From NCBI RefSeq assembly GCF_964204645.1, contig NC_134025.1, positions 14,570,001-14,634,000 of the forward strand: DNA of 64,000 bases, given 5' to 3'. The translations under genes were made by a program, and so were the position numbers. Positions 1,867-50,967 of the stretch are shown in pieces. The notes under the pieces are model-generated. The model did no database searches, had not been told where the DNA came from, and saw only the letters and a list, made by a program, of their open reading frames with translations. Numbering within the stretch: position 1 is the stretch's first letter; every line of letters starts with the position of its first letter. The DNA comes from Tubulanus polymorphus. Taxonomy: Eukaryota; Animalia; Nemertea.

Positions 1867-2018
1867 AGTAATAGGGAATAAGTTGTTTCATATCAAAGGT
1901 TGAAGGGGCGAGTGAGTAAAAAATAAAAAATAAATTCGAGTTTGCGAGAATTTATTTTTTATTTTTTATGAGCTCGACCCTTCGACCTTTGGTATGAAAC
2001 AACTTATTCCCTATTACT
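1867..2018. repeat. 152-bp near-perfect palindrome (AGTAAT...ATTACT) at the end of Polinton copy 1
   Basis: agtaatagggaataagttgtttcata...aaataaattc / ~10-nt loop / gaatttattt...tatgaaacaacttattccctattact. Confidence 0.9.
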
Positions 2019-28869: not shown

Positions 28870-29174
28870 TTGGTTTTGTCGCCAGCGACAATTCATTATT
28901 TTGGTTTTGTCGCACGCAACAATTCAATAGTTTGTTTTTGTCGTCCGCGACACTTCATTATTTTGGTTTCATCGCGCGCAACAATTCAATATTTTGGTTT
29001 TAACGCCCGGGGAAATTCATTATTGTGGTTTTATCGCCCGCGACAATTCATTATTTTGGTTTTATCGCCCGCGACAATTCATTATTTTTGTTTTGTCGCC
29101 CGTGAAAATTCAATATTTTGGTTTATTCACCCGCGACAATTCATAATTTTGGTTTTGTCGCCCGTGGTTTTGTC
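28870..29174 (+). repeat. 31-bp satellite, short array
   Basis: Duplicate of 19041-19345. Confidence 0.9.
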
Positions 29175-30593: not shown

Positions 30594-32273
30594 ATGATTT
30601 TGATTTTGTCGCCCGCGACAATTCATTATTTTGGTTTTATCGCCCACGACAATTCAATATTTTGGTTTTATCGCTTGCGATAATTCATTATTTTGGTTTG
30701 TCGCGTGAGAAAATTCATTATTTTGGTTTTATCGCCCGCGACAATTCATTATTACTGTTTTAGCGCCCGCGACAATTCATTATTTTGGTTTTGTCGCCCG
30801 CGACAATTCACCATTTTGGTTTTGTCGCCCGCGACAATTCATTATTTTGGTTTTGTCGCCCGCGACAATTCATTATTTTGGTTTTATCGCCCGCGACAAT
30901 TCATTATTACTGTTTTATCGCCCGCGACAATTCATTATTTTGGTTTTGTCGCCCGCGACAATTCACCATTTTGGTTTTGTCGCCCGCGACAATTCATTAT
31001 TTTGGTTTTGTCGCCCGCGACAATTCATTATTTTGGTTTTATCGCCCGCGACAATTCATTATTTGGGTTTTATCGCCTGCGACAATTCATTATTTTGGTT
31101 TTGTCGCCCGCGACAATTCTTGTTTTTGGTTTTGACGCCCGCGACAATTCATTATTTTGGTTTTATACTTTGTTTTTGTCGCCCGCGACAATTCAATATT
31201 TTGGTTTTGTTGCCCGCGGCAATTCATTATTTTGGTTTTATCTCCCGCGACAATTCAATATTTTGGTTTTATCGCCCACGACAATTCAATATTTTGGTTT
31301 TATCGCCCGCGATAATTCATTATTTTGGTTTTGTCGCGTGAGAAAATTCATTATTTTGGTTTTATCGCGCGATAAAACATTATTTTGGTTTTGTCGCCCG
31401 CGACAATTCACCATTTTGGTTTTGTCGCCCGCGACAATTCATTATTTTGGTTTTGTCGGCCGCGACAATTCATTATTTTGGTTTTGTCGCCCGCGACAAT
31501 TCATTATTTTGGTTTTATCGCCCGCGACAATTCATTATTTTGGTTTTGTCGCCCCGACAATTCTTTTTTTGGTTTTGTCGCCCGCGACAATTCAATATTT
31601 TGGTTTTATCGCCCGCGACAATTCAATATTTTGGTTTTATCGCCCACGACAATTCATTACTTTGGTTTTATCTCCAGCGACAATTCATTATTTTGGTTTT
31701 GTCGCCCGCGACAATTCTTGTTTTTGGTTTTGACGCCTGCGACAATTCATTACTTTCGTTTTATACTTTGTTTTTGTCGGCCGCGACAATTTTTTTTTGG
31801 TTTTGTCGCCCGCGACAATTCAATATTTTGGTTTTATCGCCCGCGATAATTTATCATTTTGGTTTTATCGCCCGCGACAATTCATTATTTTGGTTTTGTC
31901 GCCCCGACAATTCTTTTTTTGGTTTTGTCGCCCGTGACAATTCATTAGTTTGGTTTCGTCGCCCGCGACAATTCAATATTTTGGTTTTATCGCCCGTGAC
32001 AATTCATTACTTTGGTTTTATCTCCAGCGACAATTCATTTTTTTGGTTTTGTCGCCCGCGACAATTCTTGTTTTTGGTTTTGACGCCCGCGACAATTCAT
32101 TATTTTGGTTTTATACTTTGTTTTTGTCGCCCGCGACAATTCAATATTTTGGTTTTGTTGCCCGCGACAATTCATTATTTTGGTTTTATCGCCCGCGACA
32201 ATTCAATATTTTGGTTTTATCGCCCGCAATAATGCATTATTTTGGTTTTATCGCCTGCGACAATTCAATATTT
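30594..32273 (+). repeat. 31-bp satellite array, ends at the Polinton left terminus
   Basis: Tandem monomers until ...cgcctgcgacaattcaatattt|gcattc. Confidence 0.97.
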
Positions 32274-32288
32274 GCATTCAATTTGCAT

Positions 32289-32670
32289 TCAATTGGTCGC
32301 TCCACTTCGCTACCGCTCCGCTCCGCGACCAATTGATTTATTTACAATACACAAATTCATATAATCAAATATATTCAAATAATAATAATCATTCTATTAT
32401 TCAACTGAAATGCACACGGTTATGAAAATATATTATAGTTTTAAATTACTTTTAATGTTTGTTTTTAATGAACTCGACCATTCAACCTTTAACCTGAAAG
32501 CCCATTACCCCTATTACTCTTAAAATATTCATGTAAATGAATAACATTTAAATTGACAGATTATTCAATATAAAAGTATATATTTACAACATTATTTCAA
32601 TGTTCATATTTGTATGAGTTAGATGTTTAAACATTAAAAGTGTTAGTAAAGTGTGATTGAAATAATGCAT
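32289..32670 (+). repeat. Left TIR with terminal hairpin
   Basis: Reverse complement of 49796-50176. The outer end is a stem-loop: tcaattggtcgc (32289-32300) pairs with gcgaccaattga (32325-32336). Confidence 0.9.
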
Positions 32671-33389
32671 AGCTGTTTATACTAGAACATGATTCTATTT
32701 GAGCCTATATACATTTCATGTAATGAACTATTGAATAAATCTATCAATTCACAGCTGATACAGCTGTTACTATGACGCCGAGACATATGAGTCATGATAT
32801 TACAAACGTGTAGAACACTCTAGAACCGGAACCAGATGACGTGGCAAGAAATGAACAGGCGCTGTAACATTACGCTCAGGATATTCTATCTCTCGAAACG
32901 AAATTAGAAGTTTATAGTTTACAATTCTAAATCTAAATGTAAGTACTGTTTTTTGTAGTTATTAGGGCTATTAAATATGAAACCTTTAGATATATGTAAG
33001 TGTATTTAGTATATCTTTTAGATGGCTAGAGTTGCCGCTAATATCTTTTAGATTAATAAAACGCCATACGCATCAAGAAGTGATAGAGAAACTCAAGATA
33101 CTCTTTCTGACTGAGGAATCAACAGCAATGGGGATATCGAACCAATAGAAATTAGCACAAGAAACACAAGAATCGCCAAAAGATCGACGAAGAAACTATA
33201 TAAGAATTTCAAAAACATTAAGACTCCAATGATTAAGTTTAACATTTGTTGATGTAGTTAAATATTTACCAGCAATTGAAAAAATGTTTGTAATTATAAA
33301 TTATATTTATAGAAATCAAATGATGTATTGGAAGAAACGGCCGAACAACTTGTATAATGTATTGTGTAAATCTGATTGGCGAATTTTTA

Positions 33390-33610
33390 TGTTCGGTCGT
33401 TTCTATTCAGAATGAATATATAATTAGGATTAGCGCATGCGCATTGAGCAAAACCGCGCACGAATGCGCGGTTTTGCTCAGTGGTATGATTTAGATATTT
33501 CATGTCGGTTGTTTCTATTTACATAATGAATATATAATTATGATTAACGCATGCGCATTAAGCGAAAGCGCGCTGAATGCGCGCTTTTGCCCAATGGTAT
33601 TATTTAGATA
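33390..33610. promoter_or_regulatory. Two ~120-bp direct repeats, each with a GCGCATGCGC-type palindrome and a GC-rich hairpin
   Basis: tgagcaaaaccgcgca-cgaa-tgcgcggttttgctca (33445-33480) and aaagcgcgc-tgaat-gcgcgcttt (~33565-33587). Confidence 0.6.
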
Positions 33611-33728
33611 TCAAGGAATCGAAAAAATTTTTCAAAAGCAGCGAGGAATGATAAAGGATGACGTTGGTCGAAGAAATGGAAGAGGATTCTAAAATATTAA
33701 CCAATTTAGTAAAAAATACGTATAATAA

Positions 33729-34406
33729 ATGGAACCAGAACAACCACAAACTATCAATATTACAAATAACACTGGTGTTATAAATATATATTACAAGAAA
33801 TGTTCTAAATGTGAATTAGATAAATTAGCTTTAACAGAATTTAGTAAGCGTAAGATTAGCAAACATGGTTTTCAATATTGTTGTAAAACTTGTTTTAAAC
33901 TATATACCAAACAATATCGAGAAGATAATAGAGAAGCTTATAATGATTATATGACAGAATATATGAGAGAAAGATATCAAACAGATCTTAATTTTAGATT
34001 GAAACAATGCTTAAGATCTAGATTAACACAATTATTCAACAAAGAAACACATTCAGAAACACTATCTTATCTATTGGGTTGTTCAGATGAATTTCTCAAA
34101 TCATGGATTATATTTCAATCCGATGATAAAATGAATAAAGATAATTATGGGGATTATTACCATATTGATCACGTGTTACCAATATCTAAATTTAACATGA
34201 ATGATGAATACAATAAAAAACTTATTTGGGGTTGGAAAAATTTAAGGCCTTTAGAAAAGAAAGAAAATCAAATCAAATCTAATAAACTAGATTTACAGTT
34301 ATATTTAGAACAGTTAACAAAGGCAAAGAAATTTATTGATCAATGGAACAATGATCCACATAATGAACAATACGTTGAGGAATTTGATATCAAGGATCCG
34401 AAATGA
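33729..34406 (+). CDS. HNH-type endonuclease with N-terminal zinc ribbon
   Basis: CSKC..CKTC, YHIDHVLP, WKNLRPLEKKENQIKSN; intact 225-aa ORF starting at TAAATG. Confidence 0.75.
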   Translation: MEPEQPQTINITNNTGVINIYYKKCSKCELDKLALTEFSKRKISKHGFQYCCKTCFKLYTKQYREDNREAYNDYMTEYMRERYQTDLNFRLKQCLRSRLTQLFNKETHSETLSYLLGCSDEFLKSWIIFQSDDKMNKDNYGDYYHIDHVLPISKFNMNDEYNKKLIWGWKNLRPLEKKENQIKSNKLDLQLYLEQLTKAKKFIDQWNNDPHNEQYVEEFDIKDPK

Positions 34407-34707
34407 CTTATCTGGACAGTTATAATTACTGCTCCTAATAGATAGACAATAGTAGTGAGATATCAAATAGAATTTAAATAAAATATAATAAAAAAACAAT
34501 AACTTCAACTAGCTAGTGAATTCTATTATATTTTTAATATTTTCTTTTCAAAAAAGAATACTTTATATTTTGAATAGATTCAAATAGAAATTCTTTAAAT
34601 TCAAATAGCTAGTATCAGTAGTCAATACTAGAATTCTTTAGCTTTAACTAGCTAGTATCATTTGAAGAATACTTATAATATTTTTTTGCTTTTTTTCTCT
34701 AATATAA

Positions 34708-35317
34708 ATGTCAAAGAAATCTAATAAGAATAGTATTGATATTGAAAAAAACATTAGATGATTTGGGTATAAGTGATAATAAAGATACAGTTGTAACTAA
34801 TTGTGCTCAAGTTAATTGTAATATAGATTATGAATACTATTTATATTGTAAGCATCATCTAGAACTATTGATTGCCGGTGGAAAAACTAAAGAGTTTTTA
34901 AATAGAATTATTACTTTTCAAGAATTAGATGCTATGAAACCCGATAAAGTAATAAAATATTTTAAGATTTATGAAGAGGCAAGATTAGCTAGAATAAATG
35001 ATTCTATTTCAGATGGTATTGTCAAATGTTATTCTAAGTTATGTAACCAGTTAATACCAATTGATGATGAAAATAAATTATATAGTGATTTGAAAAATGA
35101 CTACTTAGTTATGACTGAATTACAAAAATGGGTTGGTTATGCTTCATTTCAATTAGGATCGGTTATGACATTAATTTCTACTGGCGTCATAACATTTTCG
35201 AACATCAAGCCTATGGAATATAAATCAGGTAAGAATGAAACAGATGACGCTGTACTACAACCAAACGGTGAAACAGAAAATGAATCAGAACAAAAATTAA
35301 CTAAAATAAATGAGTGA
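34708..35317 (+). pseudogene. Polinton hypothetical protein with C-terminal hydrophobic segment (5' frameshift)
   Basis: ATG at 34708 in TATAAATG context is out of frame with ORF 34736-35317; hydrophobic stretch LGSVMTLISTGVITF. Confidence 0.6.
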
Positions 35318-35679
35318 TGGAGTTAAGAAAAAGGCTAGATCCGAGAAACAAATTAAATGGGCAAGAGAATCAGGTAAAAGATCTTCAGAATTAAAAAAAG
35401 CTAAGAAAAAGAATTTAACTGATTATAAATGAATCACAGACTTCATCTGATATTGATTCAAATAATAATCCATCTAATTCTTCTAATGCTGGAAGTAATT
35501 ATAAATTATATATTACAATTGGATTAGTAACAGTTATTATATTATCTGGTGTAATATATAAATCAAAATTCAAATCTGATGATAAAGATGATTCCAATGA
35601 CAATAAACCTATTATACCAGAAAATAAATCAAATCATAAAACCATTGAAAATAAACCAAGATTATTATTAATGGATTAA
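35310..35679 (+). pseudogene. Small basic single-TM protein (frameshifted)
   Basis: TAAATG start, MSDGVKKKARSEKQIKWARESGK..., frameshift near 35425, then YKLYITIGLVTVIILSGVIYK...LLMD*. Confidence 0.55.
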
Positions 35680-35685
35680 AATAAG

Positions 35686-36771
35686 ATGAAAAAAGAACAA
35701 TATTTAAGAGATTTATATTATAACCCAGAAAGTGAAGTATCATATTCCAACGTTTCAGAATTATGGAATAAAATTAAATCTGATAATGGTGATATAAAAT
35801 ATAGTGAATTAAAATCATGGTTACAAAATCAACCAACATATCAAATCCACAAGAAAATGGATAAAACTTATTTAACAAGAAAAGTTATGGTTTCATATAT
35901 CGATCAACAATGGCAAGCAGATTTAATTGACATGAAGAACTTAGAGGAATACAACAAAGGATATTTCTGGATATTAAATGTTATAGATATATTCAGTCGA
36001 TACGCATGGTCAATTCCAATCAAAAATAAAACTGGAATAGAAGTGACAAATGCTTTTAAATCTATATTTAAAGAAGCTATTCCAGATAAGATACAATTTG
36101 ATGAAGGAAAGGAATTTTATAACAAACATTTTAAAAAACTATTATCTGATAACGATGTAGATTATTTTTCAAAACATTCAGATAAAAAAGCATCTATTAT
36201 AGAAAGATTTAATAAAACATTGAAAATTAGAATGTGGAAATATTTTACTGCTAATGAAACATATAAATATATCGATGTATTAGATGATTTAGTGAAAGGT
36301 TATAATAATTCTAAACATAGTTCTATAAATATGAAACCTATACAAGCTAGAAAAGAAGATAATTCGGAAATAGTTTGGAATAATTTATATGGAGCATTTG
36401 TTACACATGATTTCGGTGAACCTAGATTCAAAATTGGACAACACGTCAGAATATCTAAATATAGAAAAACATTTTATAAAGGTTATACCCCAAATTTTAC
36501 TGAAGAAATATTCAAGATTAAAAAGATAATATTAACTAAACCATGTGTTTATAAATTAGAAGATTTAAGAGACGAACAAATATTAGGTTATTTCTATGAA
36601 CAAGAATTATCACTTGTACCAAATCCAGATGAAATAGAATACAAAATAGAAAAAGTATTGAAAACAAAAACTCCCTAAGGAAAAAAGTATTCTTTGGTGA
36701 AATATAAAGGATATGATGATAAATTTAATGAATGGATTTTATCTAGTCAAATTAAAAGAATAAATGAATAA
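35686..36771 (+). pseudogene. Retroviral-like (rve) DDE integrase with C-terminal chromodomain; premature stop at 36676
   Basis: QWQADLIDM, VIDIFSR, QFDEGKEF, IERFNKTLK. Reading through the TAA gives YKIEKVLKTKTP*GKKYSLVKYKGYDDKFNEWI. Confidence 0.92.
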
Positions 36772-37375
36772 AGATTTATTTATATTTGAACCGCATAATA
36801 TGTTAGTTACTGGAGTAACCAATTGTGGTAAAACACATTTCATATTAGATTTGTTAGAAACTATTTATAAGAATCATTTTGATAACATAATATTATTTTG
36901 TCCTACTTATGAAATGAATAAAACATATAATAGAGATATAGTTAAGATAAAAAAGTTTATTATATTAAATCCTAAAACAGTAAAAGAAAATTTAGATAAT
37001 TGTATTAAAATAGCAATTGAAACTTATTAAGGATCAAATACATTATTCATTATAGATGATTGCGCAAATTTACATGATTCAAAAGTGAGAGAAAGTGAGT
37101 TATGTTATTTAGCTTTCTCTGGAAGACATTTTGGGATAACAACATGGGTTTTAAATCAAAAATATAATTCAATTGTTAAAGACTTTAGGGAGAATATAAG
37201 ATTTCTAGTTTTATTTTATAACAAAGATAAAAAATCTATGCAACAATCATTGGAAGAAAATCAAATTATACCTACTGAGTTACATGATGAATATATGAAT
37301 AAATTAAAGAATAATAAAGGTTCAAAATTATTACTGAGATTACAATTTCCCTATGAATATAAATTTATAAAATAA
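36764..37375 (+). pseudogene. A32/FtsK-like DNA packaging ATPase; in-frame stop at 37028
   Basis: Walker A GVTNCGKT, Walker B FIIDDC just after the stop, SGRH motif. Confidence 0.9.
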
Positions 37376-37773
37376 CTATTTGTGTACCTATGTATTAGAT
37401 GCCCTAATACCTGATACCCCATTAGATACCCTAATACCTGATACCCTATTAGATACCTTCAATACTTAAAACCACCTTTTTTAAGATAAATATTATCTAT
37501 ACAATTTTCAACCAATTTATTTTTATTTTTTCAACTAATATATGAATAAGTTTGAAAATAATAAAGGTTATTTATTATTACTGAGGTTTCAATTTCCATA
37601 TGAATATCAGTTTATAAAATAAGATATTTTATGTATTAGATTGTATTAGATTGTATTAGATATGTATTAGATACCTTAAATACCTTAAATACTTAAAACC
37701 CCCTTTTTTATTTACTATTATTTTATACAATTTTCAACCAATATTATTATTTGTGTTAAATATAATTAATATT

Positions 37774-38672
37774 TTAATCACTTTCACTATCAGACCCTAA
37801 CAATTTATTCAAATTCTCTACCGAATTTTCTTCTTCAAATTCTTTATTATTTTTATACTTTTTCATCCTTTTTACCGAATTATCAATAGTTGTTTCATTG
37901 TTATGCTTATTCATCCAATCAAATTTATCATTATTTTCTACTTTATGTTTCATAGAATCTTTAATATCAATATGCTTATCTGTAACTATATCTTCATTAT
38001 TATCTTTATTAGTGTTTGCTCCTAATATTTCATTTACAGTGTTTGGTTTTAATATTTCATTAGCATCGGTTAGATCTAATTCATCTTTATTAGGAGTTGC
38101 TAATAATAAATCTTTATATAATTCTTTACCATTTACTTTTTGATTTGAAACAAACTTTGTAACATATCTAAATGGGTGTTCTATAAATTCTTTTAAACCA
38201 ACATGTTCTATAACATTACTTATATGTACCCTTGTATTCATATGTTTATTCCAATTTGATGAGCGTTTGAAAATTCACTTTTACAATATCCACAATAATT
38301 TCTATTTTCACTAACATTTAATATTATTTCATTATTAGATGTAGAAGGTATTACATTATTAGATGTAGAAGGTATTACATTATTAGATGTAGAAGGTATT
38401 ACATTATTAGATGTAGTAGGTATTACATTATTAGAAGTAGAAGGTATTACATTATTAGATGTAGTAGGTATTACATTATTATCAATTACATTACTTAAAT
38501 TATCAACAACTTCACTTTTATTATTATCGATTTCTATTAGTTTAGTTTTATAAATTTTGAAAATAGGATCAAATATCAAAGCTATATTACAAGGTATTAC
38601 ATAATATAAACCATCATTATTTTCATGTGTATCGATGTATGGAATATGTTTATATACTTTACCTCCTTCCAT
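37774..38672 (-). pseudogene. Hypothetical protein with 8-aa repeats (NNVIPSTS) and a C2H2-type finger split by a frameshift
   Basis: Joining the two ORFs gives YCGYCKSEF/KRSSNWNKHMNTRVH; 24-bp tandem repeats at ~38325-38495. Confidence 0.6.
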
Positions 38673-38704
38673 TTATATAATAAATTTTTATTAAAGTTAA
38701 AATT

Positions 38705-40150
38705 TTAATACATAACACTATCTAATTGTGAATTTACAATATTTAATTGTGCGTCAGATATAATATAAATGTGCATTTTAAAATTTTTGATTCCTTTATT
38801 CTTTGTCATGAATAATTGTATTCCATCTTTAGTGTTCTGTAGTTTTTTTCCAAAACCATGTTATGAATTATCCTCTGTTGTTCTAAAATCTAACCATAAT
38901 GCATATTCATTACCGGTATAATAATCAATTTTATTAATGTTACAATTTTCAGATGATTTCACTTTTTCATTCATAAAATGTTTTCTAATTTCTGGCCATT
39001 GATCAATCATTCTCATTCCTTGACAAAATATTTTATTTGCTATTCCTTCGATAGTTATTTCTACTTTTGTTATTTCAGGATTATAATAATTATCAACATT
39101 TATTGCGCCATTAGTATATGTTGCAATTTTATTAATGTTACAATTTTCAGATGATTTCACTTTTTCATTCATAAAATGTTTTCTAATTTCTGGCCATTGA
39201 TCAATCATTCTCATTCCTTGACAAAATATTTTATTTGCTATTCCTTCGATAGTTATTTCTACTTTTGTTATTTCAGGATTATAATAATTATCAACATTTA
39301 TTGCGCCATTAGTATATGTTGCAATGGTAAAAAATATTAATATACCTTTAATAGATCTTCTTGGGAAGTTAATATTCTCATTAATAATTTCATCATTTGC
39401 ATTAATAGTTACAGTTTTAAATTTATCAATATAATCATATAATAATGAAAATCCTTGATTGTATTGAGTTTGAATTATACTTGCAATATTTTCATCAGTT
39501 ACTGTATCATATTCTAAACATATATTCGATAATTTATAACTCATATCTTTATTAACGCTAGATATTACAATTTCATTTACAGGAGCAAATGTTATTTTGA
39601 ATATAACGTCTTCTTGAATTGCGTATTTATATAAAGGTGCATTGTTATTTATCAATTCAAAGTCTAATGGAATTTTATATTTGATTCCATATATACTTTT
39701 TATCAATTTATCTACAGCATTAGTTAATATTGCGCTATTAGCTTCTGATCTTAATTTATTTTGGTTTTCTGATTGGATTCCTTGAAATACCATATTATTT
39801 CTATTTTCTTTAGTTAACCATAAATCCTTATAATGCATAAATAAATTATAATCATCTAATGAGAAAACTGTTTCTGGACCAATCTTTATAGTTAATTTTT
39901 TAATCAAATATCTTCCAACATTATCAACAACATAATTATTATTATTACCGATTACTTTTATATCGGCTGATGAATAAATACTATTTGGAACATAAAAAGT
40001 ATTTTGTGTTAATCTAGGAATTCTAACATATAAAGTTTCATCGGGATTAATATTAGAAGGGTTATGAGTAATTATATGATGTGATCTTTCTGCTTTAATA
40101 GCATTAGATATTCTATGATTCTTAGAAGGATTGATATAACTCCCACTCAT
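38705..40150 (-). pseudogene. Major capsid protein (double jelly-roll), with an in-frame stop at 38861 and a 198-bp internal duplication
   Basis: THNPSNINPDETLYVRIP, IPLDFE, LSNICLEYD, ALWLDFRT. Read-through gives DNS*HGFGKKLQNTKDGIQL..IISDAQLNI, typical of Polinton MCP C-termini. Confidence 0.8.
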
Positions 40151-40170
40151 TTATTTAACAAAAAAATTAA

Positions 40171-41760
40171 TTATTTATTTTTTATCATGTTTACTAGCCC
40201 AAAAATAATAGCACTTACAACTGTAATTAAAAATAAAATAATATGTTCAGCAGCAAAGTTAATAATATTCCCTGCAGATTTCAATATAAAACCAACAATT
40301 GATGCAATAACTCCTGGCAATGCTGCAGCAGATTTCTTTGATAGTTCCCATAAATATTTTGCTAATTTCTTTAAACCATCCTTAACTTTATCTTGTATAG
40401 AATTATTGTCATTCGGGGGTTTATCTGGTTTATTTGGAGTAGGAGTAGATTGCAGTGAATTTGATATAGCTAAACCTATTGTTGTAAATACCATAGTTAC
40501 AGCTGTTAGAATTGAAAGAATTGTTATTCCTTCTAACTTAAATAATAATTTTATTCTATCTTTCAATGATATTTTAGAATCTGGTTTTATCAACAAATCT
40601 TTAAAAATAACTTTTAATCTATTAATATTATAATCATATGATTTTAATAATGATTAATTTCTTCTTTTTGTAATTCTATGTTATATTCTAAATCATCTTT
40701 TTCTTTTTCTAAATACGCATTTCATTTTTTAAATTCGATTTCTTCAATAACTTTATTATCTCTATCTAATTTTAGTTGTTCTATTTCTTTAATTTTATCA
40801 GTTCTATCTTTTTCTAAAAATCTAATTTTAATATCTTTTACTTTTTTCATGCGCAATTTTATCAGCTGATTCTTGCATACCTTTAATTTCTCTACGCGCT
40901 TGTTCAGGAAATGCTTCTAATTCATCATCATTTAAATCAAATAATCCTTTTTCTAGTAAAGATTGTATTCGATTTATTCCAGTTTCAGCACCGGGTGTAT
41001 CTAAAGCACTATTCATCTCTTCTTCAAATGAATGAACTGTATCTAACATGTTATCAAAATGTTTTACTAATTGTAATTGACTTGAATCATTATCAATTTG
41101 TTGAATATCTCTTCTCGATGTTTCGGGTGTTGAAGATCTTAATTTATCTAATCGATCTCGATTCTCTTCCATTTCCGTTTTTGAATTTTTATCGATTATT
41201 TCAAATAAGTCATCAATTCTTTGACTAAATACTCTTATATTATCATCTCTTTCTTCTTGTGTAACATCAGTTATTTCATTACTATTACTTATTCTTTTAA
41301 TTTTATCTGGATCTAATTTTCTCAAAGTTGATTCCGCTAATATTTTATTTAGTCTTGTCTTTTGATTAGTGATATCAATATAATAATCACCATCCAAACG
41401 ATAATAATATTTACCTTTAAAAAGTTTTAATTTTTGTACTAAAAGTCTGGCGCCTCTATCATTTATATTATATCCAGATTCTTTAAATACACGTTGAAAA
41501 TCATACATAAATTAATAATTTTCAAAATTTTCTCTTTCTAAACCTTGATTTTCATTTTCAGGAGGTATTCTCGATCTAGTTCTTCTATCAAATTCATCTG
41601 TTGATGGGGCTTTAGAACCACTATCTGCTAAATTAGAATTATATGCTGATTCATTACCATCATCAATATTAGTTTCTGCATCATTATAATCATCATCAAT
41701 ATATCCTTCATTATTATTTCCCATGCCTTCCATTTCATAATCTTCTCCACCTTCTGCCAT
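40171..41760 (-). pseudogene. Large acidic/coiled-coil protein with C-terminal membrane segments (three fragments)
   Basis: ORFs 41512-41760, 40828-41508 and 40171-40596 are collinear with a single TAAATG start; C-terminal GITILSILTAVTMVFTTIGLAI and LPGVIASIVGFIL..IILFLITVVSAIIFGLV. Confidence 0.65.
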
Positions 41761-41775
41761 TTACATAATAAAAAA

Positions 41776-43054
41776 TTAAAATTTAAAATATAATATTCCT
41801 CCGATTACAATTCCTATACAAGTTAAAGCTAATTTAGTATTTTCATGGGATTTATTATCATCATTTAGTTTAATTATATCATGTTGAATATTATCAGTTT
41901 TTATATTTTCTGATGTATTGTAATCTTTTATTTTAGAATCATTATTTAATTTAATATTATTAGTTTTAGTTTCAGTTGATTGAATGTGTTTTTTATTTTT
42001 TTCACCTTTCATTAATTTTGGAGCAGTGATAATCTTTTTATTTATATCATTTAATCCAAATGAATTATTTATTGTTGCAGTTTTAATTAGATTATGATAA
42101 CCAATTATATTTCCCATCTTTAATACTAAATCATTAGAAATAATTAATAGATTAGGGCCTATACAATAATTTAATCTAATATGTGATTTATCTAAATAAT
42201 TTTGATATCTTACAATGTTTTCTGGAATCGATCTATTTTTATCATTGTGAATGGAATCTTCAAATAATACTTTAAACTGTTTCTGCGCATCGAATGAAGT
42301 GTTATCATTTCCAATTATTGGGGATCTTGTTTCAACTTGCGCACCTAAAATACATATCAAATAAGTTCTAATAGATTGATTTATTCTTTGTATTCCAGCT
42401 TTAGTAAAACCTTCACTATTTTTTAAAATGAAATTAACCCAACCCTTAGTGTTATCAATTTTATAATTATGATAAGCTGAAATTCTATGCATATAATCAA
42501 TTCTTTTTATTTCAAACTCTTCACCAACACCTGCAATTTACCATGCGCTCTAAAATCGGAATTAATATTTATATTAAATTCATTACATATTTTATAAAAC
42601 TTAGATTCTTTAAAATATTAGACCCGGGTAAAGGACATTCTAATTCATTTAATATTATTCTGATTTGAAAAGATGTGTGAAATCTATATATTGTGTGAAT
42701 AAATTTTAAATCAGAATACTTCAAATTTTTATCTAAGTTATTTAAATGATCATTCCAACTTATTCCACATCCTGTTGTTGCACAATAAACAACAAAATCT
42801 AATTGGTTCTGCCAATATTTCATATTAGATTTTACTTTATATATATGGTATTCATCTCGAGTAAAAGTAACTTCATATGTATTAAGTATATTTTCCATTT
42901 TAGAAATAAAAAACTGTGATTCAGTAACATAAATTTCTAAATTAGTTAATGAATTTAAAACTACATTTCTATATGTAATATTTTTCTTAAAATCTATTGA
43001 AGGAATATTATATTTAATTGATTTATTATATTGGAAAGCTTTTGGAAACCCCAT
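41776..43054 (-). pseudogene. Polinton hypothetical protein with C-terminal TM anchor (frameshifted)
   Basis: ORFs 42569-43054 (WQNQLDFVVYCATTGCGIS) and 41776-42492 (GFTKAGIQRINQSIRTY..LALTCIGIVIGGILYF). Confidence 0.65.
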
Positions 43055-43070
43055 TTATATAATTAAAAAA

Positions 43071-43505
43071 TTAATAATTAACTAATTCTTTTAATAATTT
43101 ATCTTGTTCTTCAACTGTTATATGGCCATTTAAACTTATTATATAATCTAGTGTATTCTTCAATTTATTAATTTCTTTTATATTAGTTTTAATTTTTTCT
43201 TTATTACTTTTTATATTTAATTTTGAACTTATACCAGTTAAAACACTTGAACTTAATCCTAATACGCCAATTGATATAGCTAAAGGTGTTAATGGACTGA
43301 ATATTGCTAGAAATGTTATTACAGAACTAATTGTAACCGAACCACTTATAATCAAATAATATATAATTTTAGATTTTAAATATTGTTTCTTTTTAACTTT
43401 TAAGTCACTTTCAAATTCTAATATTTGTTTTTCTAAATATGTTTTTAATTTAGTTTTATTTATATCATGAGGAATAATATCAATATTATCAACTTTATCT
43501 TCCAT
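43071..43505 (-). CDS. Small two-TM membrane protein
   Basis: IIYYLIISGSVTISSVITFLAIF and LAISIGVLGLSSSVLTGI; TAAATG start. Confidence 0.7.
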   Translation of the reverse strand: MEDKVDNIDIIPHDINKTKLKTYLEKQILEFESDLKVKKKQYLKSKIIYYLIISGSVTISSVITFLAIFSPLTPLAISIGVLGLSSSVLTGISSKLNIKSNKEKIKTNIKEINKLKNTLDYIISLNGHITVEEQDKLLKELVNY

Positions 43506-43525
43506 TTATTTAGCAAAAAAAATTA

Positions 43526-43948
43526 CTAATTAGTAAACTTATAAGCAACAAATATAACAATAACAGTTCCGCATAAAATCCAAATTATTTCATATTTCTT
43601 CTGTTCATTACTTGGGGTATAATAATCTGATATTGTAGGTTTATGTAGATGTAATTTTTCTTTATTGGTTACCGCGTTATATAAACTCATTGCATCATCA
43701 ACTGATTGAAAATCTCTATGTGAAATCTTCTGATCATATAATTCCTTGTTAATATAATCCATATAGTTTTGCCTCTTTTCTCTATATTCTTCCGCAGCTT
43801 TATTGTATTTCTCTAATGCTAAGTTATGTCTTTTTTGTTCTGTTAATGATCCATTTTTATCAATATGCTTAAATAAATAACCGCCACCAGTAAATGCTAA
43901 AGCGTTAACAATTGCCGATCCTATAATAGTTATAACTGCAGAAGCCAT
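43526..43948 (-). CDS. Small membrane protein (N- and C-terminal hydrophobic segments)
   Basis: AVITIIGSAIVNALAFTGGGYLF..EQKRHNLALEK..IIWILCGTVIVIFVAY; TAAATG start. Confidence 0.7.
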   Translation of the reverse strand: MASAVITIIGSAIVNALAFTGGGYLFKHIDKNGSLTEQKRHNLALEKYNKAAEEYREKRQNYMDYINKELYDQKISHRDFQSVDDAMSLYNAVTNKEKLHLHKPTISDYYTPSNEQKKYEIIWILCGTVIVIFVAYKFTN

Positions 43949-44190
43949 TTATTTAGTAAAATAATTATGTATATGGGAGGAATATATTTTTGTTTTTCTA
44001 AATAATCAATAGTTAAATTAGATAAAGTAACTGCTAATGTTAATTTTAAAATATCATTTATATCAAATCTATCAACATTAACACTTCCCATTTTGAATAC
44101 TTTTTTTAATACCATTGAATAACCAACAGTTCCAACTGATAGTAATGCTCCATTATATAATCCAGTTATTATCCACTTATTATCACTCAT
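43930..44190 (-). CDS. Small hydrophobic protein
   Basis: GLYNGALLSVGTVGYSMVL..YLEKQKYIPP; TAAATG start. Confidence 0.6.
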   Translation of the reverse strand: MSDNKWIITGLYNGALLSVGTVGYSMVLKKVFKMGSVNVDRFDINDILKLTLAVTLSNLTIDYLEKQKYIPPIYIIILLNKWLLQL

Positions 44191-44294
44191 TTATTTATCA
44201 AAAAAATTACTATCATCAAAATATTTAGTTAACTTATTTATGATTATTTCAACATTTATTTCATTACTAGTTTCATTTTTATATATTTCAATTA

Positions 44295-44546
44295 TTATTT
44301 TTTAATATCATCGATGATAAAATCTTCATCTAATTCATAAAATCTTAAAGATTCTCTAATTAAATTAGTAATCTTTTCTACATTAAATGTTTTTTTATCT
44401 ATTGTTTTTTCATACTCAAATGTTGTTTCATTAGAAAATGTAATATTTTTGATATGTGTAATTACATCAGTAATGTTAAACTTCATTTCTTTCTCATGTT
44501 TAAAATCAAACCCAAAACATATACTCGGCCCAACAGTTATATTCAT
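44295..44546 (-). CDS. Hypothetical 83-aa protein
   Basis: Packed between neighbours and preceded by the conserved TAATTTTTT..TATAAATG motif. Confidence 0.55.
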   Translation of the reverse strand: MNITVGPSICFGFDFKHEKEMKFNITDVITHIKNITFSNETTFEYEKTIDKKTFNVEKITNLIRESLRFYELDEDFIIDDIKK

Positions 44547-44562
44547 TTATATAGTGAAAAAA

Positions 44563-45309
44563 TTACTCTTTACATCTTATAACTAATTCATACATCACAG
44601 GAAAGTTATTCAAATCAATTAAATAACCATTATGATTTCTTATTTCTAATTTAAAATTATTAAATTTAGGAATGCAAGGTTTAAAATCACATTCTGTTAA
44701 ATTATAATTTATTTGAGTTCCAAATTGTTTTAGCGGTAAAATATTTAGTATACTAGAACTACAAATTGTTTCTTTAGTTGCTTCGAAAGTTTTTGTAGGC
44801 TCGATTAAATTGCAATAAATATAAAAGTGCGTAAAAGGTATTATATTTGAGCTGCCTTCTGCGTTTCCAGTAACTGTAAGAGGTTTAATTCCTAACATTT
44901 TAGCCAGTGGTTTGTTTACCATAAATTTATGTTGTTCATTAGATATCTTTATTCTTATTTTATTAGTACTATCAATTTTATTAAATTTAATTTCAAATAC
45001 AGAAGTGCCCCCGATTTTCAACCGAGCTCTTCTATTAATTTCCTGCGCTAATGATTCTAAATTATATAATCCTGGTTTTAAAAATATATGAAACCATTTA
45101 TCTTTATTTCCCATATAAATCATAAACCCTCTATGTTCAAAAGTTTTATCTGATATATTATAAAAAGAATTACATAAACTTATATTAACTAATTTCAAAT
45201 CTACACAATTCTTAAATTCTCTATCTAATTGAACTAGTAAATTATGAGATTTATAATTAGTAAGTTTTCTTGAATCAACAAATATTCTGTATTCTTTTAA
45301 TTCCACCAT
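44563..45309 (-). CDS. Minor capsid protein (penton, single jelly-roll)
   Basis: IFVDSR..NSFYNIS..KPGLYNLESL..YIYCNLI..SILNILP..LEIRNHNGYLIDLNNFPV pattern typical of Polinton mCP; 248 aa, intact. Confidence 0.75.
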   Translation of the reverse strand: MVELKEYRIFVDSRKLTNYKSHNLLVQLDREFKNCVDLKLVNISLCNSFYNISDKTFEHRGFMIYMGNKDKWFHIFLKPGLYNLESLAQEINRRARLKIGGTSVFEIKFNKIDSTNKIRIKISNEQHKFMVNKPLAKMLGIKPLTVTGNAEGSSNIIPFTHFYIYCNLIEPTKTFEATKETICSSSILNILPLKQFGTQINYNLTECDFKPCIPKFNNFKLEIRNHNGYLIDLNNFPVMYELVIRCKE

Positions 45310-45326
45310 TTATTTTACATATTTTC

Positions 45327-45680
45327 TTATTCGAAATCTATTTCATGGTGCCATTTTTCATTCTTACCTTTGTATACGAAATAGAAATCACCAGAACATA
45401 ATTCTTCTAAATCTTCACTTGATAATCTATGAAATCTATCTGGTAAAAATGTTCTGAATTTATGTGTATTTCCTTTTAATCCTTCATATTCTAAGTGTAT
45501 AACTAATTTATCTCCATAGTTATTAGTAACTGTATCAATATTTGTAATTAGATATTTCTTATGAATTGTTAATTCTGTTAACTTTTTGAATTTATAATCT
45601 ACAGATTTTACATTTGTGATATCTTTAATTCTATCTAGAAATAATTTGTTGTTCTCACTGTGCGCTTGTTTACTCTCCAT
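45327..45680 (-). CDS. Hypothetical 117-aa protein, possibly OB-fold nucleic-acid binding
   Basis: FKKLTEL..KYLI..TNNYGDKLVIHL..TFLPDRF beta-rich pattern; adjacent to pPolB and shares its upstream motif. Fold assignment is a guess. Confidence 0.5.
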   Translation of the reverse strand: MESKQAHSENNKLFLDRIKDITNVKSVDYKFKKLTELTIHKKYLITNIDTVTNNYGDKLVIHLEYEGLKGNTHKFRTFLPDRFHRLSSEDLEELCSGDFYFVYKGKNEKWHHEIDFE

Positions 45681-45775
45681 TTTAATAACATATTTTTATT
45701 AAAATTTGATTAACACGTTAGAATTCTTTTCATTATCTCGTTCTCTTTTGTTTCTTCTCTTTTAAATTTTAAGTA

Positions 45776-48700
45776 TTAATCTAAATTGCAACCATATGCA
45801 ACTGTATGAATTCCATCATCTAAAATATATCTTTTATCATCAAATGGGTTTAGACTTATCTTTTCAATTTCTTCAATAAACATTTCATGATCTTCAGATC
45901 TTAAACATCTCATCTTATGTTTTCTAACTTCTTCATTGAATATACAATTGATGTAATCTTTGAAATGAATATTCTTTTCTACTACACTTTTGGTTATTCC
46001 TTTTAACTTTTTAGCTTCATGTTCTTTTTTATATGAATACATTTTAGATCTAATACCTATGAACTCTATCATTTCTTCACCGCCTAATTCATCCTTAAAC
46101 TTCCCTGGAACTTTTTTATTATCATTGCTAAACAATTCATGATCTTTAGGATAATTACTAAAATCAAAATGATGTTTTAATGTTTTTAAATCATCAGTTA
46201 TGTTATCAGTTTTTATCTTTAATATGTAAGAATCTGTATCAAAATATAGTATTTCTATATGTTTTTCTCCAAAAAGTGGTTGTAATACATTATAATAGAA
46301 TTCATACATTAGTAATTTTGATAATTCTAAAACTGAAGCGCCAACATAGATTGGTTTATTAAATTTCATTGATGTTCTTCTCATCTTAACTGCGGCTAAA
46401 TTTTCATCAAATATTCTGTTACCAATGAACTTAGGATATGATTGTAAATGCCTTATCCTTTTGCCATTACTTACTAACTCAATATCATTTCTATTTCTAA
46501 TATTTTCACAAGTCTTACCATAGAATGCATTATTCATTAACTTGAAGAAATCTTTCTCGAAATCAGTTTTAGCTTCAGTTCTCTGTTTGGTGTTAAAATC
46601 TATATATTTTTCTAACCACTTAGATTGGCTGAATGAAATATATCTATGTACTTTTTTTATAATCATTCCTTGATTCAAATAAAACTTTAACATTCTATAA
46701 TGTACTACATAATTATATTTATCTTCTTGAGTTACCATTAACTTTTCTGTATGAATATGATTTTCGGGTTTAATTCTTTTTTGGTAATTTGATAATTCTT
46801 CATGTGTTACAGTTTTATGTTCGGGGCAGTATGCTAGATTTCTAGATTTAAATTTTTTATCTTCAGGATATTCTAAATCTACAACAAAGAAGTAACCAGT
46901 ATCTGAATCATCTGCAATATCTAGAATTCTTTTCTTCCAATCAAATTTATCATTATTTTCATTCTGTAAAACTTCAGTTAATTCAAAGACTCCATAAGGT
47001 TGTGGTTCCACCATTGCCCAACCATACAAATTATTTGCACCTATATATATAATAACTTATATCCAGGGTTATCATTTACATTGAAATATCTATCCCCTAA
47101 TCCACCTGAAACACCTCCTCTTATAGATTTTTCAAATAATAGTAATTGATCTATATTTGTTAACAAATCCATTTTTATATCTGTACATTTTAATCCACAA
47201 TCCCATGTTAATCCTGGTGATGAATAACAATGGCAAGGATCAATATTAAAATATTTTAGGTTTACATCTCTAAACCTTTCGAATATATCGGTTAATAATA
47301 ATACATCTGATTTTAGATATAAATCTACTAATTGCCCATGATTTTCTATTTTGAAATGATTCCAAATATTCAATGTTCTATTATATACTTCATCTTTAAC
47401 ATATTCATTTTTTAATTCATCATAGAATTGTTCTTTCAATAATTCAGTTATGTTAAAATCATTATGATTTTTATAAAATGAATATGAAATAGCGCCTTTA
47501 TATCTCATTAACTGAAAATCATCATTATTTGGGTAATATTCTTTTAACATCTTTAATTCATCATCAACTAATGATTTTGATAAGTTATCTAATGAACTAT
47601 TTAAAAATCTATATGAATCTATAAATCTTAAACACCCAAATTGGAATGATGTATAATTCTCAGATGTTTTAGCTAACATTCTAAATTTATAAGTTGGTAT
47701 TTTATCTTTTGATCTATTTGAATTTAATCTTTCTATTTCATTATTAATTTCTTCTATTTTATGACATAACTGTTTGATAAATAAATGTGCATCATATCCT
47801 GATAGATTATGAAATATAACTGGTACAAAGTTAATTTTCTTAGCTTGTAAGTTACAATTCTCATGTGCAGCGCCTCTAAACTTTCCATTCAAATGCTCAT
47901 GGTCTCTTACTTTTTTATCTTTATAATTAAATATCTTTTCACAATAATAACATTTACCTGAAAACACAAATCCTTCTTTATCTTCTTCTGTCATTATAAT
48001 TTCTATATTTGTATTCAATAATTTACTAAATCTTATTTCATATTCAATTAATAAGTCACAAAAATGATTGATAACATTTTCATTTCTGTAATGATAATAT
48101 TCACTTTCAATTAGTTCTGGATAATCAGATTTAATATATAACCCGAAAGCTGCAGCTGATTGATGAATCTTTTTAATAGTATTTGTTTTTGGTGGTTCAT
48201 CTGAAAAATCATTTTTATTAGAATTTAATTTCTTTCTTTTATAATATATTTCTTTTCTATCTTGATCAGTTCTTTATTTAATGATTCAAAATCTCCATAT
48301 ATAACAAATGGAACTTTATTTTTGTAATCATATTTTTTGAATTATAATATTTTATCTTTTTCATTTGGTAAAACTAATTTACAATAATCATGATTATCAC
48401 ATAATTGTTTATGATTTAATAATGTACTTTCATTACTGAATCTATGTAAACATTTTCTACAAAGATATATTTTATGGTGATCATTTTCTGATTTATAAAA
48501 AATATATCTATTTGTTTAATCCACATATAATGATTCTCATAATATAGTATATCTATAACATCGTTTGAATCGTAATCTTTTGATAGGTATAAAGGTTCTA
48601 ATGTATAATGTTTTATATTGTTACCTTTTGTATTTGGTAATTTGATTAAATCAAATACATTTATCTTTATATTATTATCTCTTTCTATTTTTGGGATGTT

Positions 48701-49741
48701 TTTAATTATAACAGGATACTTATCTATCTTATAATTATTTTCAAATTGTTTATAATGAGTTAATCTAAAACTATGTTGTTTATAATCTTCAACTGGGTGT
48801 AAACAACTTATTATAGCCCATAGAAAACATTTATCATCTTCATTTTGTACATTTATTACAGCATTAGTTTTAAATGGTAGTTTAATAAAACTCGATGCTT
48901 CAATATCTGGTTCTTTATAATATGATACATTATTTTCATCTATTGGTTTCGATTTAGTTAACTTATTATATTTTGTGTTATAAACATGTAAAGTCATAAA
49001 TATTATTTCATCAAATATTAAACCAGATCCATCAAAATATTTCTCTTCTATTTTAGTTTTTACTTCATTATAACATTTATCTAATTTATCATCTATATGT
49101 TGTTTAGATATAATATGTTGTGAATGAGAATTTATATTATATATTGGTTTATCTTCAGATTTTATAAACTTTACTTTAGAAGATATACTAATTTTAGGGT
49201 ATTCAACATCTGTAATTATTTTTATAATATTTTTCATATTTTCTAAATGTTTTTTTATTTTCTTCTAATGTTTTTCCTTTATGAAATTTAAACTCGATAG
49301 CTGCTGGGCCAATATCACTTTTAAATGCTTCGGTTATCTCTATATCTTTTTTATTATCCAATTGATTAATATATTTTCTTACATCTTCCATGTATGGTCT
49401 TTTATTGTTTAATTTATTTTTTATGCTTTTAATTGTCTTCTGTTTCTTATCATTATCTTTATCAAAATAATTTTCACCTAAAATAACATTATTCATATTA
49501 CTAATATGACTTTTAGATTTTAAATGTTCATTATAATATCTTTTATCACTGAATGATTGATTACATGTATCACATTTGTATGTTTCTTTTTCATTCTTTA
49601 ATTCATCTAATTTAGTTTCTAATCTTCATATTCTAATTTCAATTTATTCTCTAAATGTGTTTTAGTTTTATTGTGTCTTGCTTTTTGGGATTTATCTATA
49701 TTGATATTACATGTTGGACAGTAGTACTTATTTGCTTCCAT
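45776..49741 (-). pseudogene. Protein-primed family B DNA polymerase (pPolB), fragmented
   Basis: Exonuclease motifs IYGDFES and FHNLSGYDAH; endonuclease VII-like CYYC..RDHEHLNGKFRGAAHENCN; motif B KLMNNAFYGK; motif C YFDTDS. Motif A is broken by a 2-bp slip near 47041. Confidence 0.95.
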
Positions 49742-49795
49742 TTTAATACTAAATTTTTTATTAAAATTGATTTTAGAAGTTCAATGATTTATATC

Positions 49796-50176
49796 ATGTA
49801 TTATTTCAATCACACTTTACTAACACTTTTAATGTTTAAAAATCTAACTCATACAAATATAAATATTGAAATAATGTTGTAAATATATCTATATATCTAT
49901 TCTATAAGAGCTTACACTTTTATATTGAATAATCTGTCAATTTAAATGTTATTCGTGTATATGATTATTTTAAGAGTAATAGGGGTAATGGGCTTTCAGG
50001 TTAAAGGTTGAATGGTCGAGTTCATTAAAAACAAATATTAAAAGTAATTTAAAATATAATATATTTTCATAACCGTGTGCATTTCAGTTGAATAATAGAA
50101 TAATTATTATTATTTGAATATATTTGATTATATGAATTTGTGTATTGTAAATAAATCAATTGGTCGCGGAGCGACC
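49796..50176 (-). repeat. Right TIR ending in mini-hairpin ggtcgc-gga-gcgacc
   Basis: Reverse complement of 32295-32670 with scattered mismatches and a ~28-bp insertion near 49890. Confidence 0.9.
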
Positions 50177-50967
50177 GTAGAATGGCTTAGTATTTCCTTA
50201 TTAGATTGGTACCTAGGCATATTTTGTTACTATGATCAATTGCAAAGTTGTATTTCATGACAATTACTACAATTGTGGTGAGTTTTAAGGTCATTGGGTT
50301 TTGCATATGGTCACCAGGGGCGTTGAATAGTAGAATAACTTAGTATTTCCATATTAAATTGGTAACGAGGCATATTTTGTTATCACAATCAATTACAAAA
50401 TCATAGCTGCTCACATGTTCTATGATTGTGGTGGGTTTCAAAGTCATTGGTTTTTGTATATGGTCACTAGAGGGCGTTGTGTATTGAAATTGTTAGATTG
50501 TTGAGCATTTGAAACCACTTCCCAAGTGAGCATGGTGTCCCTGGACCCCTAGTTTGGTTTTTTCGCCCGCGACAATTCATTATTTTGGTTTTTTCGCACG
50601 AAACAATTCAATATTTTGTTTTTGTCGTCCGCGACAATACATTATTTTGGTTTTATCGCCCGCGACAATTCAATATTTTGGTTTTAACGCCCGCGACAAT
50701 TCATTATTGTGGTTTTATCGCCCCCGACAATTCATTATTTTGGTTTTATCGCCCGCGGCAATTCATTATTTTTGTTGAGCCATTATTGTTGAGCCATTGT
50801 TGTTCTGCTGAGCCATTTGAGCGACCTATCATTGATACTGTTTCCTAATAGCCTGTTTAGTAATGGCTGATGTTGAGCCTTATCAAATGCTTTGTTGAAA
50901 TCCACCGTTGAACGCGATTCTAAGACTGTGCAGAAAAACCCGTTATCGCTGCTTTGCAGCTATATTT
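50177..50967 (+). mobile_element. 3' remnants of family D, short satellite and family C 3' end
   Basis: 50177-50553 matches 18662-19040; satellite at 50554-50775; 3' motif cagaaaaacccgttatcgctgctttgcagctatattt. Confidence 0.75.

What the first reader, a model, noticed from the sequence alone, without database searches (positions are those of the whole stretch)
32289..50176. Both ends of the full Polinton stop at the tip of a hairpin
Seen: the left end is tcaattggtcgc-[tccacttcgctaccgctccgctcc]-gcgaccaattga (12-bp stem). The right end read inward is ggtcgc-tcc-gcgacc, the same hairpin with the loop collapsed between gctcc direct repeats. The AGTAAT motif lies ~200 bp inside each TIR pointing outward, whereas copy 1 has a full palindrome and copy 3 begins with AGTAAT pointing inward. 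Inference: each terminus is a long palindrome and copy 2 lost the outer arms at the hairpin tips. This is expected if the free genome has fold-back or covalently closed ends (parvovirus/poxvirus-like) or if terminal cruciforms are resolved, perhaps by the endonuclease VII-like domain of pPolB or the HNH protein. It departs from the standard protein-primed, simple-TIR Polinton model.
Basis: partly seen in the sequence, partly recalled or inferred. Interest (0 to 1): 0.85.

Follow-up and report, generated by a model that had tools for sequence, protein, structure and literature searches.

The report
Polinton cut at both hairpin tips
This virus-like jumping gene belongs to a family whose ends carry long mirror-image DNA, and this one decayed copy stops at both hairpin tips, most likely because folded ends were cut open and patched by host DNA repair rather than because the virus normally has sealed ends.

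Summary
Observation confirmed. Both ends of the 17.9-kb Polinton stop at the same GC-rich hairpin, with no target-site duplication, repair-type junctions and at least 1.9 kb of host repeat missing. They weaken the second: 862 reads leave the palindrome at the ordinary AGTAAT terminus into unrelated flanks, and depth falls only 10% across the loop, so tip-ended copies are a minority. The polymerase keeps its terminal-protein serine and vOTU Cys/His (invariant in 75 of 75; folds predicted). The endonuclease-VII-like insert is in 120 of 120 homologues and in non-palindromic elements. Three of three inner arms share one polarity, so no flip/flop was seen (weak test). Best reading: hairpin-capped ends opened at the tip and end-joined, likely on the chromosome (0.5); capture of a doubly capped free intermediate (0.25); natively sealed parvo/pox-like ends (0.07). 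Terminal palindromes are already reported for Halocafeteria virophages/PLVs, and this scan noted them at Polinton ends in other genomes.

The parts
32289..50176 (.). Polinton copy 2: decayed element without TSD, both ends at the hairpin core
32289..32336 (+). Left hairpin core: 12-bp stem, 24-nt loop; centre of the family's terminal palindrome
   Evidence: covered at depth 1250-1390 in reads, so it is family sequence
50162..50176 (-). Right hairpin core: 6-bp stem, 3-nt loop; only 3 nt lie beyond the TIR match
32319..32670 (+). Left TIR (what remains)
49796..50173 (-). Right TIR (what remains)
32408..32518 (+). Inner arm of the terminal palindrome; in other copies it is mirrored by an outer arm that is absent here
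   Evidence: joint 32289/32408 on opposite strands in 316 reads; depth about doubles over this stretch
32337..32407 (+). Non-mirrored part of the palindrome (asymmetric bubble, inferred)
   Evidence: loose ends before 32289 (588 reads) and before 32408 (619 reads), each with one dominant continuation
32513..32518 (-). Inner copy of the terminal AGTAAT motif, left
   Evidence: 862 reads leave here into unrelated sequence
49975..49980 (+). Inner copy of the terminal AGTAAT motif, right
32274..32288 (+). 15-nt junction filler, part of an 11-bp tandem duplication (32270-32294); alt-EJ-type scar (inferred)
30597..32273 (+). Left host flank: 31-bp satellite
50177..50776 (+). Right host flank: begins inside a 155-bp repeat; 95.7% identical to 18662-19263
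33729..34406 (+). Stand-alone HNH / endonuclease-VII-like ORF
   Evidence: PHROG 1035, E 1.8e-15; no Pfam hit, no PDB sequence hit
35680..36678 (+). Retroviral-like integrase
   Evidence: Pfam rve E 1.8e-9
36680..37375 (+). A32-like packaging ATPase, broken
   Evidence: Pfam Pox_A32 E 1.2e-4, below the curated cut-off
38861..40150 (-). Putative major capsid protein (name recalled, not confirmed by a library), with a 198-bp internal duplication
   Evidence: homologues in 6 of 104 related loci; duplication
45713..49741 (-). Protein-primed PolB in five frame segments; TP and vOTU motifs and EndoVII-like insert present
1867..2018 (+). Copy 1 terminus: complete 152-bp imperfect palindrome ending in ATTACT
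61581..61665 (+). Copy 3 terminus: AGTAAT start, no palindrome, pPolB ORF begins 85 bp in

Best explanation
The ends of this Polinton family are long imperfect palindromes bounded by an ordinary AGTAAT terminus, and copy 2 has lost both outer arms, most likely because each end became a hairpin-capped break on the chromosome that was opened near its tip and joined to host DNA by error-prone end joining. Shown: the palindromic family ends, the conventional outer terminus in most copies, the tip-ended state, missing TSD, filler and non-contiguous flanks of copy 2. Inferred: (1) copy 2 was first inserted by its integrase with full ends; (2) a break in the satellite-rich flank, or cruciform cleavage, exposed single-stranded DNA in which outer and inner arm paired; (3) the cap was opened off-centre, leaving 12 bp (left) or 3-6 bp (right) of palindromic overhang; (4) alt-EJ joined it to resected host DNA. 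The family would still start replication by protein priming at AGTAAT; the fold-back of the displaced strand's 3' end may help protect it or prime the second strand, which is untested.
For: Family palindrome and normal outer end: (316 opposite-strand reads from 94 starts; 862 reads leaving at 32518 with agreement 0.34; depth about 1390 at the core, 3010 at the end of the arm, 620 in the inner TIR). Rarity of tip ends: depth falls 10% across the loop and is about 9 over the private junction, 0.7% of the core. Repair scars: 11-bp tandem duplication and filler on the left, blunt right junction, no TSD; at least 1.9 kb (16757-18662 equivalent) of the host unit is absent between the flanks. Age: 10 mismatches and 2 gaps between TIRs, pPolB in five frame segments. 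Tip position is non-random: 0.7-1.2% for two uniform breaks in a 48-nt core of 580 or 430 nt. Mechanism precedent: fold-back near a break gives hairpin-capped ends opened by Artemis or MRX-Sae2 (PMC7999016, passages); SD-MMEJ at loops and hairpins (PMC5728401, abstract). Protein priming parts kept.
Against: It needs two separate events at one element, while tip-ended termini are at most about a tenth of all; one capture event would be more economical. No single-sided tip-ended copy was seen (151 loose-end rows were not shown). No empty site or earlier full-length allele of this locus was available. The host deletion is inferred from paralogous units that are about 4% diverged. The uniform-break probability ignores that the scan selects odd cases.
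Confidence: 0.5

Rival explanations
1. One-step capture: a free replication or excision intermediate with both ends folded and sealed (3' fold-back priming of the displaced strand plus ligation, or cruciform resolution at both ends) was opened at the tips and patched into a resected chromosome break without the integrase.
For: A single event explains both tip ends, the lost outer arms, no TSD and the host gap. Copy 1's 3'-ended strand folds to -63.0 kcal/mol against -55.5 for the other strand; 4 of its 7 arm mismatches are G.T and none A.C on that strand (p 0.06 for 4 of 4). The element has two EndoVII/HNH-like domains.
Against: No free DNA was examined. A 5' terminal protein would block ligation of the second end (established knowledge of protein priming). 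The EndoVII-like insert is in 120 of 120 homologues and in elements without palindromes. The copy is old enough for secondary damage.
Confidence: 0.25
2. Plain deletions: microhomology-driven deletions or recombination with the neighbouring satellite removed the outer arms, and the breakpoints fell at the core because it is the only GC-rich, repeat-rich and satellite-like spot in the end.
For: Core is 58% GC against 20-24% around it; three CGCTCC repeats. The 31-bp satellite resembles the core (23 of 5000 shuffled hairpins score as high).
Against: Neither junction lies inside the satellite-like match; the right flank is not satellite; the right junction shows no microhomology to the host homologue.
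Confidence: 0.13
3. One reading: the native free genome has covalently closed or fold-back ends as in poxviruses or parvoviruses, replicates by hairpin priming and is resolved by the EndoVII/HNH proteins, replacing protein priming.
For: Family-wide palindromes with an asymmetric centre; the same idea is proposed for Halocafeteria virophages and PLV subtype 4 (bioRxiv 10.64898/2026.07.28.741278, section 7).
Against: Integrated ends are fully extended and AGT-terminated. TP Ser and vOTU Cys/His are invariant in 75 of 75 aligned proteins and present in both palindromic copies. Three of three inner arms have the same state at three diagnostic sites, where flip/flop would mix them (p 0.125-0.25, weak). 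No HUH/Rep or telomere-resolvase hit among 21 ORFs scanned against Pfam. In Halocafeteria the palindromes go mainly with non-pPolB elements.
Confidence: 0.07
4. Assembly artefact: the assembler broke or collapsed the palindromes.
For: The window holds a 9829-bp unit repeated at about 100% identity, so the assembly may be imperfect here; the right junction was not checked with reads.
Confidence: 0.05

Closest known systems
Polinton/Maverick elements of animals (PMC8097293, passages; bioRxiv 10.1101/2024.03.18.585575, passages and sections 6 and 8)
   Same: pPolB with TP and vOTU domains, rve integrase, A32-like ATPase, TIRs, size 17.9 kb (reported mean 16.9 kb), AGT-type end motif; most copies in vertebrate genomes are decayed.
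   Different: Ends are 150-400-bp imperfect palindromes; motif is AGTAAT rather than (AGT)2; copy 2 has no TSD and ends at the hairpin core.
Terminal palindromes of endogenous virophages and PLV subtype 4 of Halocafeteria seosinensis (bioRxiv 10.64898/2026.07.28.741278, passages and section 7)
   Same: Palindrome at the TIR extremity next to the host junction; hairpin priming proposed, untested.
   Different: There 52 nt in the figured subtype and mainly in non-pPolB elements; here longer, with an asymmetric centre, in a pPolB/TP Polinton, plus a copy ending at both tips.
AAV/parvovirus ITRs and rolling-hairpin replication (PMC11575299, passages)
   Same: Imperfect terminal palindrome whose 3' end could self-prime.
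   Different: No Rep/HUH nickase found; protein-priming domain kept; no flip/flop seen in three arms.
Palindrome-induced hairpin-capped breaks and alt-EJ scars (PMC7999016, passages; PMC5728401, abstract)
   Same: Break at the palindrome centre, short palindromic overhangs, templated filler, flanking deletion.
   Different: Here the palindrome is the end of a mobile element and both ends show the scar.

Membership tests
Polinton/Maverick | Protein-primed PolB | tested here: met
   Pfam DNA_pol_B_2 E 3.6e-6, above cut-off; 6107 homologues at E<=1e-40 among 7992 scored; broken in copy 2
Polinton/Maverick | N-terminal TP domain with linking Ser/Tyr and active vOTU | tested here: met
   Ser, Cys, His invariant in 75 of 75; model of copy 3 residues 161-460, pLDDT 85.5, Ser in the loop between helix 2 and strand 4; LF/PAD Z 8.2-8.3 (rmsd 2.6-2.7, 89-96 aligned) and viral OTU Z 7.9 (rmsd 3.1, 97 aligned), middling scores; same motifs in copies 1 and 2. 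Activity not tested.
Polinton/Maverick | Retroviral-like integrase | tested here: met
   Pfam rve E 1.8e-9
Polinton/Maverick | TIRs | tested here: met
Polinton/Maverick | AG..CT type end motif | tested here: met
   Met for the family (copy 1, copy 3, 862 junction reads); copy 2 itself lacks the outer motif
Polinton/Maverick | 6-bp TSD | tested here: inconclusive
   Absent at copy 2, whose ends are secondary; copies 1 and 3 have one end each in the window; short reads do not pair ends
Polinton/Maverick | Capsid and packaging module | tested here: inconclusive
   A32-like ATPase below cut-off; putative MCP shared with 6 of 104 related loci but not named by Pfam or PHROGs; no maturation protease recognised
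Parvovirus-like rolling-hairpin replicon | Terminal palindrome able to fold at the 3' end | tested here: met
Parvovirus-like rolling-hairpin replicon | Flip/flop isomers | tested here: inconclusive
   3 of 3 inner arms share one polarity; read tables do not link arm type to inner or outer position
Parvovirus-like rolling-hairpin replicon | HUH/Rep nickase | tested here: inconclusive
   No such Pfam hit in 21 ORFs; several ORFs are unnamed
Poxvirus-like or telomere-resolvase replicon | Covalently closed ends of free DNA | not testable with these tools
   Only integrated copies and total-DNA short reads were available
Poxvirus-like or telomere-resolvase replicon | Dedicated resolvase linked to hairpin ends | tested here: inconclusive
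   pPolB insert does not track palindromes (120 of 120 proteins; 3 of 4 AGT-start loci without fold-back; copy 3). The stand-alone EndoVII-like ORF has a homologue in 1 of 104 loci (L004), whose ends are not in the contig

The most novel reading that the evidence does not exclude
An animal Polinton lineage replicates by a hybrid route: protein priming at AGTAAT for the first strand, then self-priming of the displaced strand from a conserved 400-bp asymmetric hairpin, with doubly hairpin-capped intermediates; copy 2 is such an intermediate fossilised in the chromosome, the first physical trace of a closed-end form in Polintons.
Probability: 0.2. Interest if true: 0.8.

Novelty: new variant of a known kind. 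Interest (0 to 1): 0.48.

Why it matters
How Polintons copy their ends has never been observed directly (established knowledge; the models read here are inferences from sequence). This genome holds many copies with long, asymmetric terminal palindromes, so one long-read analysis of arm polarity can decide between protein priming alone and a rolling-hairpin step. If copy 2 is a host scar, it shows that palindromic element ends are fragile sites that strip the integrase-recognised terminus and delete host DNA. If it is a captured capped intermediate, it links Polintons to parvovirus- and poxvirus-type end chemistry.

Tried and rejected
Whole-genome survey of termini: no genome is held. EndoVII insert as hairpin marker: a first regex suggested that non-palindromic relatives lack it; a profile search overturned that (74 of 104 loci, including L019, L040, L100; none in L057), and copy 3 has it. 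Search for the same end structure in relatives: 0 of 104 loci hold an AGT-bounded inward palindrome; only 4 begin at an AGT terminus, and none of these folds back; short-read contigs break at palindromes, so absence says little. A motif scan of viral contigs gave 3 matches, none related. Rfam: no hit at 32200-33750. PDB sequence search for the stand-alone nuclease: nothing; the ESM Atlas gave no result. Foldseek gave no match at E<=0.001 (best 0.019, Y-family polymerases). The first read-laying was swamped by satellite reads. Fold-back library chimeras as source of the 316 joints were rejected because the joint is asymmetric (32289 with 32408, not with the mirror position 32336). Kapitonov and Jurka 2006 is not held and is cited only through other papers. 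bioRxiv 10.1101/2022.05.25.493380 concerns protein beta-hairpins; PMC11296320 and 10.64898/2026.10.13.758929 describe no such ends in the passages seen. Nine paper searches showed no report of Polinton copies ending at both hairpin tips; subscription journals, Repbase and supplements were not covered.
Full report
Observation. The element at 32289-50176 is an AT-rich (21-31% GC per kb against about 39% around it) Polinton with integrase, A32-like ATPase and pPolB. Its TIRs match from 32319 to 32670 and from 49796 to 50173 (341 matches, 10 mismatches, 2 gaps). The left end is a 12-bp stem with a 24-nt loop, the right end a 6-bp stem with a 3-nt loop at the matching place. An outward-pointing AGTAAT lies about 200 bp inside each end. 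Copy 1 ends in a complete 152-bp palindrome, and copy 3 starts with AGTAAT and has no fold-back.

Junctions of copy 2. No TSD of 5-8 bp was found for any boundary in 32270-32295 and 50170-50181. The left flank is 31-bp satellite up to 32273, then 15 nt of filler within an 11-bp tandem duplication. The right flank begins inside a 155-bp repeat and matches 18662-19263 at 95.7%. In the intact host units of the window these two flanks are separated by at least 1.9 kb, so host DNA is probably missing (inferred from paralogues). Only 3 nt of the right end lie beyond the TIR match. These are not integrase junctions.

What other copies look like. No genome is held, so I used reads. Four runs of one study hold 33-53% of the sampled words, and a raw Illumina run of another study carries the same species label. 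The first laying was dominated by satellite. The second (32258-32640; about 12% of run X6 read, 6316 reads laid) shows: a joint between 32289 and 32408 on opposite strands in 316 reads from 94 starts; one dominant continuation beyond 32289 (588 reads, agreement 0.87) and beyond 32408 (619 reads, 0.95); and 862 reads that leave at 32518, the ATTACT, with agreement 0.34. Depth is about 1390 at the core, 2100-3000 over the arm and about 620 in the inner TIR. I read this as a family terminus of about 400 bp: outer arm (mirror of 32408-32518), a non-mirrored stretch of about 60 nt (estimated from read length), the hairpin core, a 71-nt non-mirrored stretch and the inner arm; the outer arm ends at AGTAAT in many different host sites. 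Part of the 862 reads could be inner arms of other subfamilies, and 151 loose-end rows and 14 joints were not shown. Depth falls 10% across the loop, which bounds tip-ended termini at roughly a tenth; depth over copy 2's own left junction is 8-9, which suggests that junction exists in a second sample. The right junction was not checked with reads.

Protein priming is retained. In 75 aligned pPolBs (copy 3 fragment plus 74 of the 120 listed homologues) the GSG serine and the vOTU Cys and His are invariant. The model (pLDDT 85.5) puts the serine between helix 2 and strand 4 of a four-stranded domain, as described for the linking residue (bioRxiv 10.1101/2024.03.18.585575, section 6), and matches Y-family little-finger domains (Z 8.2-8.3) and viral OTU proteases (Z 7.9) (middling scores, no Foldseek hit at E<=0.001). 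The modelled copy is the non-palindromic one, but the same three motifs are present in copies 1 and 2.

The nuclease argument. The EndoVII-like insert is in 120 of 120 homologous proteins and 74 of 104 related loci, including 3 of the 4 loci that start at a plain AGT terminus without fold-back, and copy 3. It cannot explain why these ends are palindromic; the paper above regards such inserts as homing-endonuclease invasions. The stand-alone ORF at 33729 does match PHROG 1035, annotated endonuclease VII (E 1.8e-15), and has a homologue in 1 of 104 loci, whose ends are missing. Its role is open.

Flip/flop. Rolling-hairpin replication gives two end orientations (PMC11575299, passages). At three sites that distinguish copy 1's arms, all three inner arms of the window agree and differ from the one outer arm; 35-50% of reads carry the outer state. 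This fits fixed polarity but is weak (p 0.125-0.25). On copy 1's 3'-ended strand 4 of 7 arm mismatches are G.T and none A.C, and it folds 7.5 kcal/mol better than its complement, a hint that the fold of that strand matters.

Mechanism. Two breakpoints in a 48-nt core are unlikely by uniform chance (0.7-1.2%, before selection by the scan). The simplest chemistry for an intact inner arm, a few palindromic bases, a lost outer arm and a templated filler is a hairpin-capped end opened off-centre and joined by alt-EJ (PMC7999016, passages; PMC5728401, abstract). Where the cap arose is not settled. I favour the chromosome (0.5), because normal integrants have full ends, the copy is old and broken (pPolB in five frame segments) and it lies in satellite. 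A single capture of a doubly capped free molecule (0.25) is more economical but needs an unobserved intermediate and removal of the 5' protein. Plain deletion (0.13), natively closed ends (0.07) and misassembly (0.05) follow.

Comparison and novelty. The element is a Polinton by pPolB, integrase, TIRs and end motif (PMC8097293, passages); the TSD could not be tested on intact copies. Terminal palindromes next to TSDs, with a hairpin-priming model, are already reported for Halocafeteria virophages and one PLV subtype, mainly without pPolB (bioRxiv 10.64898/2026.07.28.741278, section 7). Unchecked notes of this scan record hairpins at Polinton ends in other genomes; none was found for this DNA. 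What is new here is the length and asymmetry of the palindrome in a pPolB/TP lineage, read-level evidence that it is family-wide, and a copy ending at both tips, which nine paper searches did not show in print (listed under Tried and rejected; supplements and Kapitonov and Jurka 2006 were not seen and may bear on this). That the host is an animal is inferred from the homologues and the repeat landscape, not shown.

Verdict. Interest 0.48, rising to 0.8 if a capped intermediate is shown (probability 0.2).

Noticed in passing
window 32160-32221 against 50150-50176: The 31-bp host satellite unit is itself a small hairpin resembling the Polinton hairpin core (23 of 5000 shuffled hairpins score as high); copies 2 and 3 both abut this satellite. 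Common origin, targeting or chance is open.
   Followed up: partly
window 1867-2018; 32472, 32484, 32492: Arm asymmetry looks inherited: at three sites all three inner arms share one base and copy 1's outer arm another, which 35-50% of reads carry, although the two end types are only 77% identical. On the 3'-ended strand these are G.T wobbles.
   Followed up: partly
window 26000-31750: A 9829-bp host unit (31-bp and 155-bp repeats) is about 100% identical to the unit before it: very recent duplication or assembly duplication.
   Followed up: partly
window 33385-33611: 114-bp tandem duplication holding a GC-rich perfect hairpin (33445-33480) just upstream of the EndoVII-like ORF.
   Followed up: no
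L004 112-7154: Closest relative (84% in pPolB) has pPolB, the EndoVII-like ORF, the next ORF and integrase in one row on one strand; in copy 2 that block lies at the opposite end.
   Followed up: no
L003 4661-4836: 176-bp palindrome between integrase and pPolB with AGTAGT motifs pointing outward, the reverse of the arrangement here.
   Followed up: no
L019 250-415: A complete Polinton with plain AGTAGT ends, TTAGGG-like repeats in the TIR and a subterminal inverted duplication.
   Followed up: no
window 61581-63999: Copy 3 is a diverged Polinton (72% nucleotide identity over pPolB) with an open 778-aa reading frame starting only 85 bp from its terminus.
   Followed up: partly
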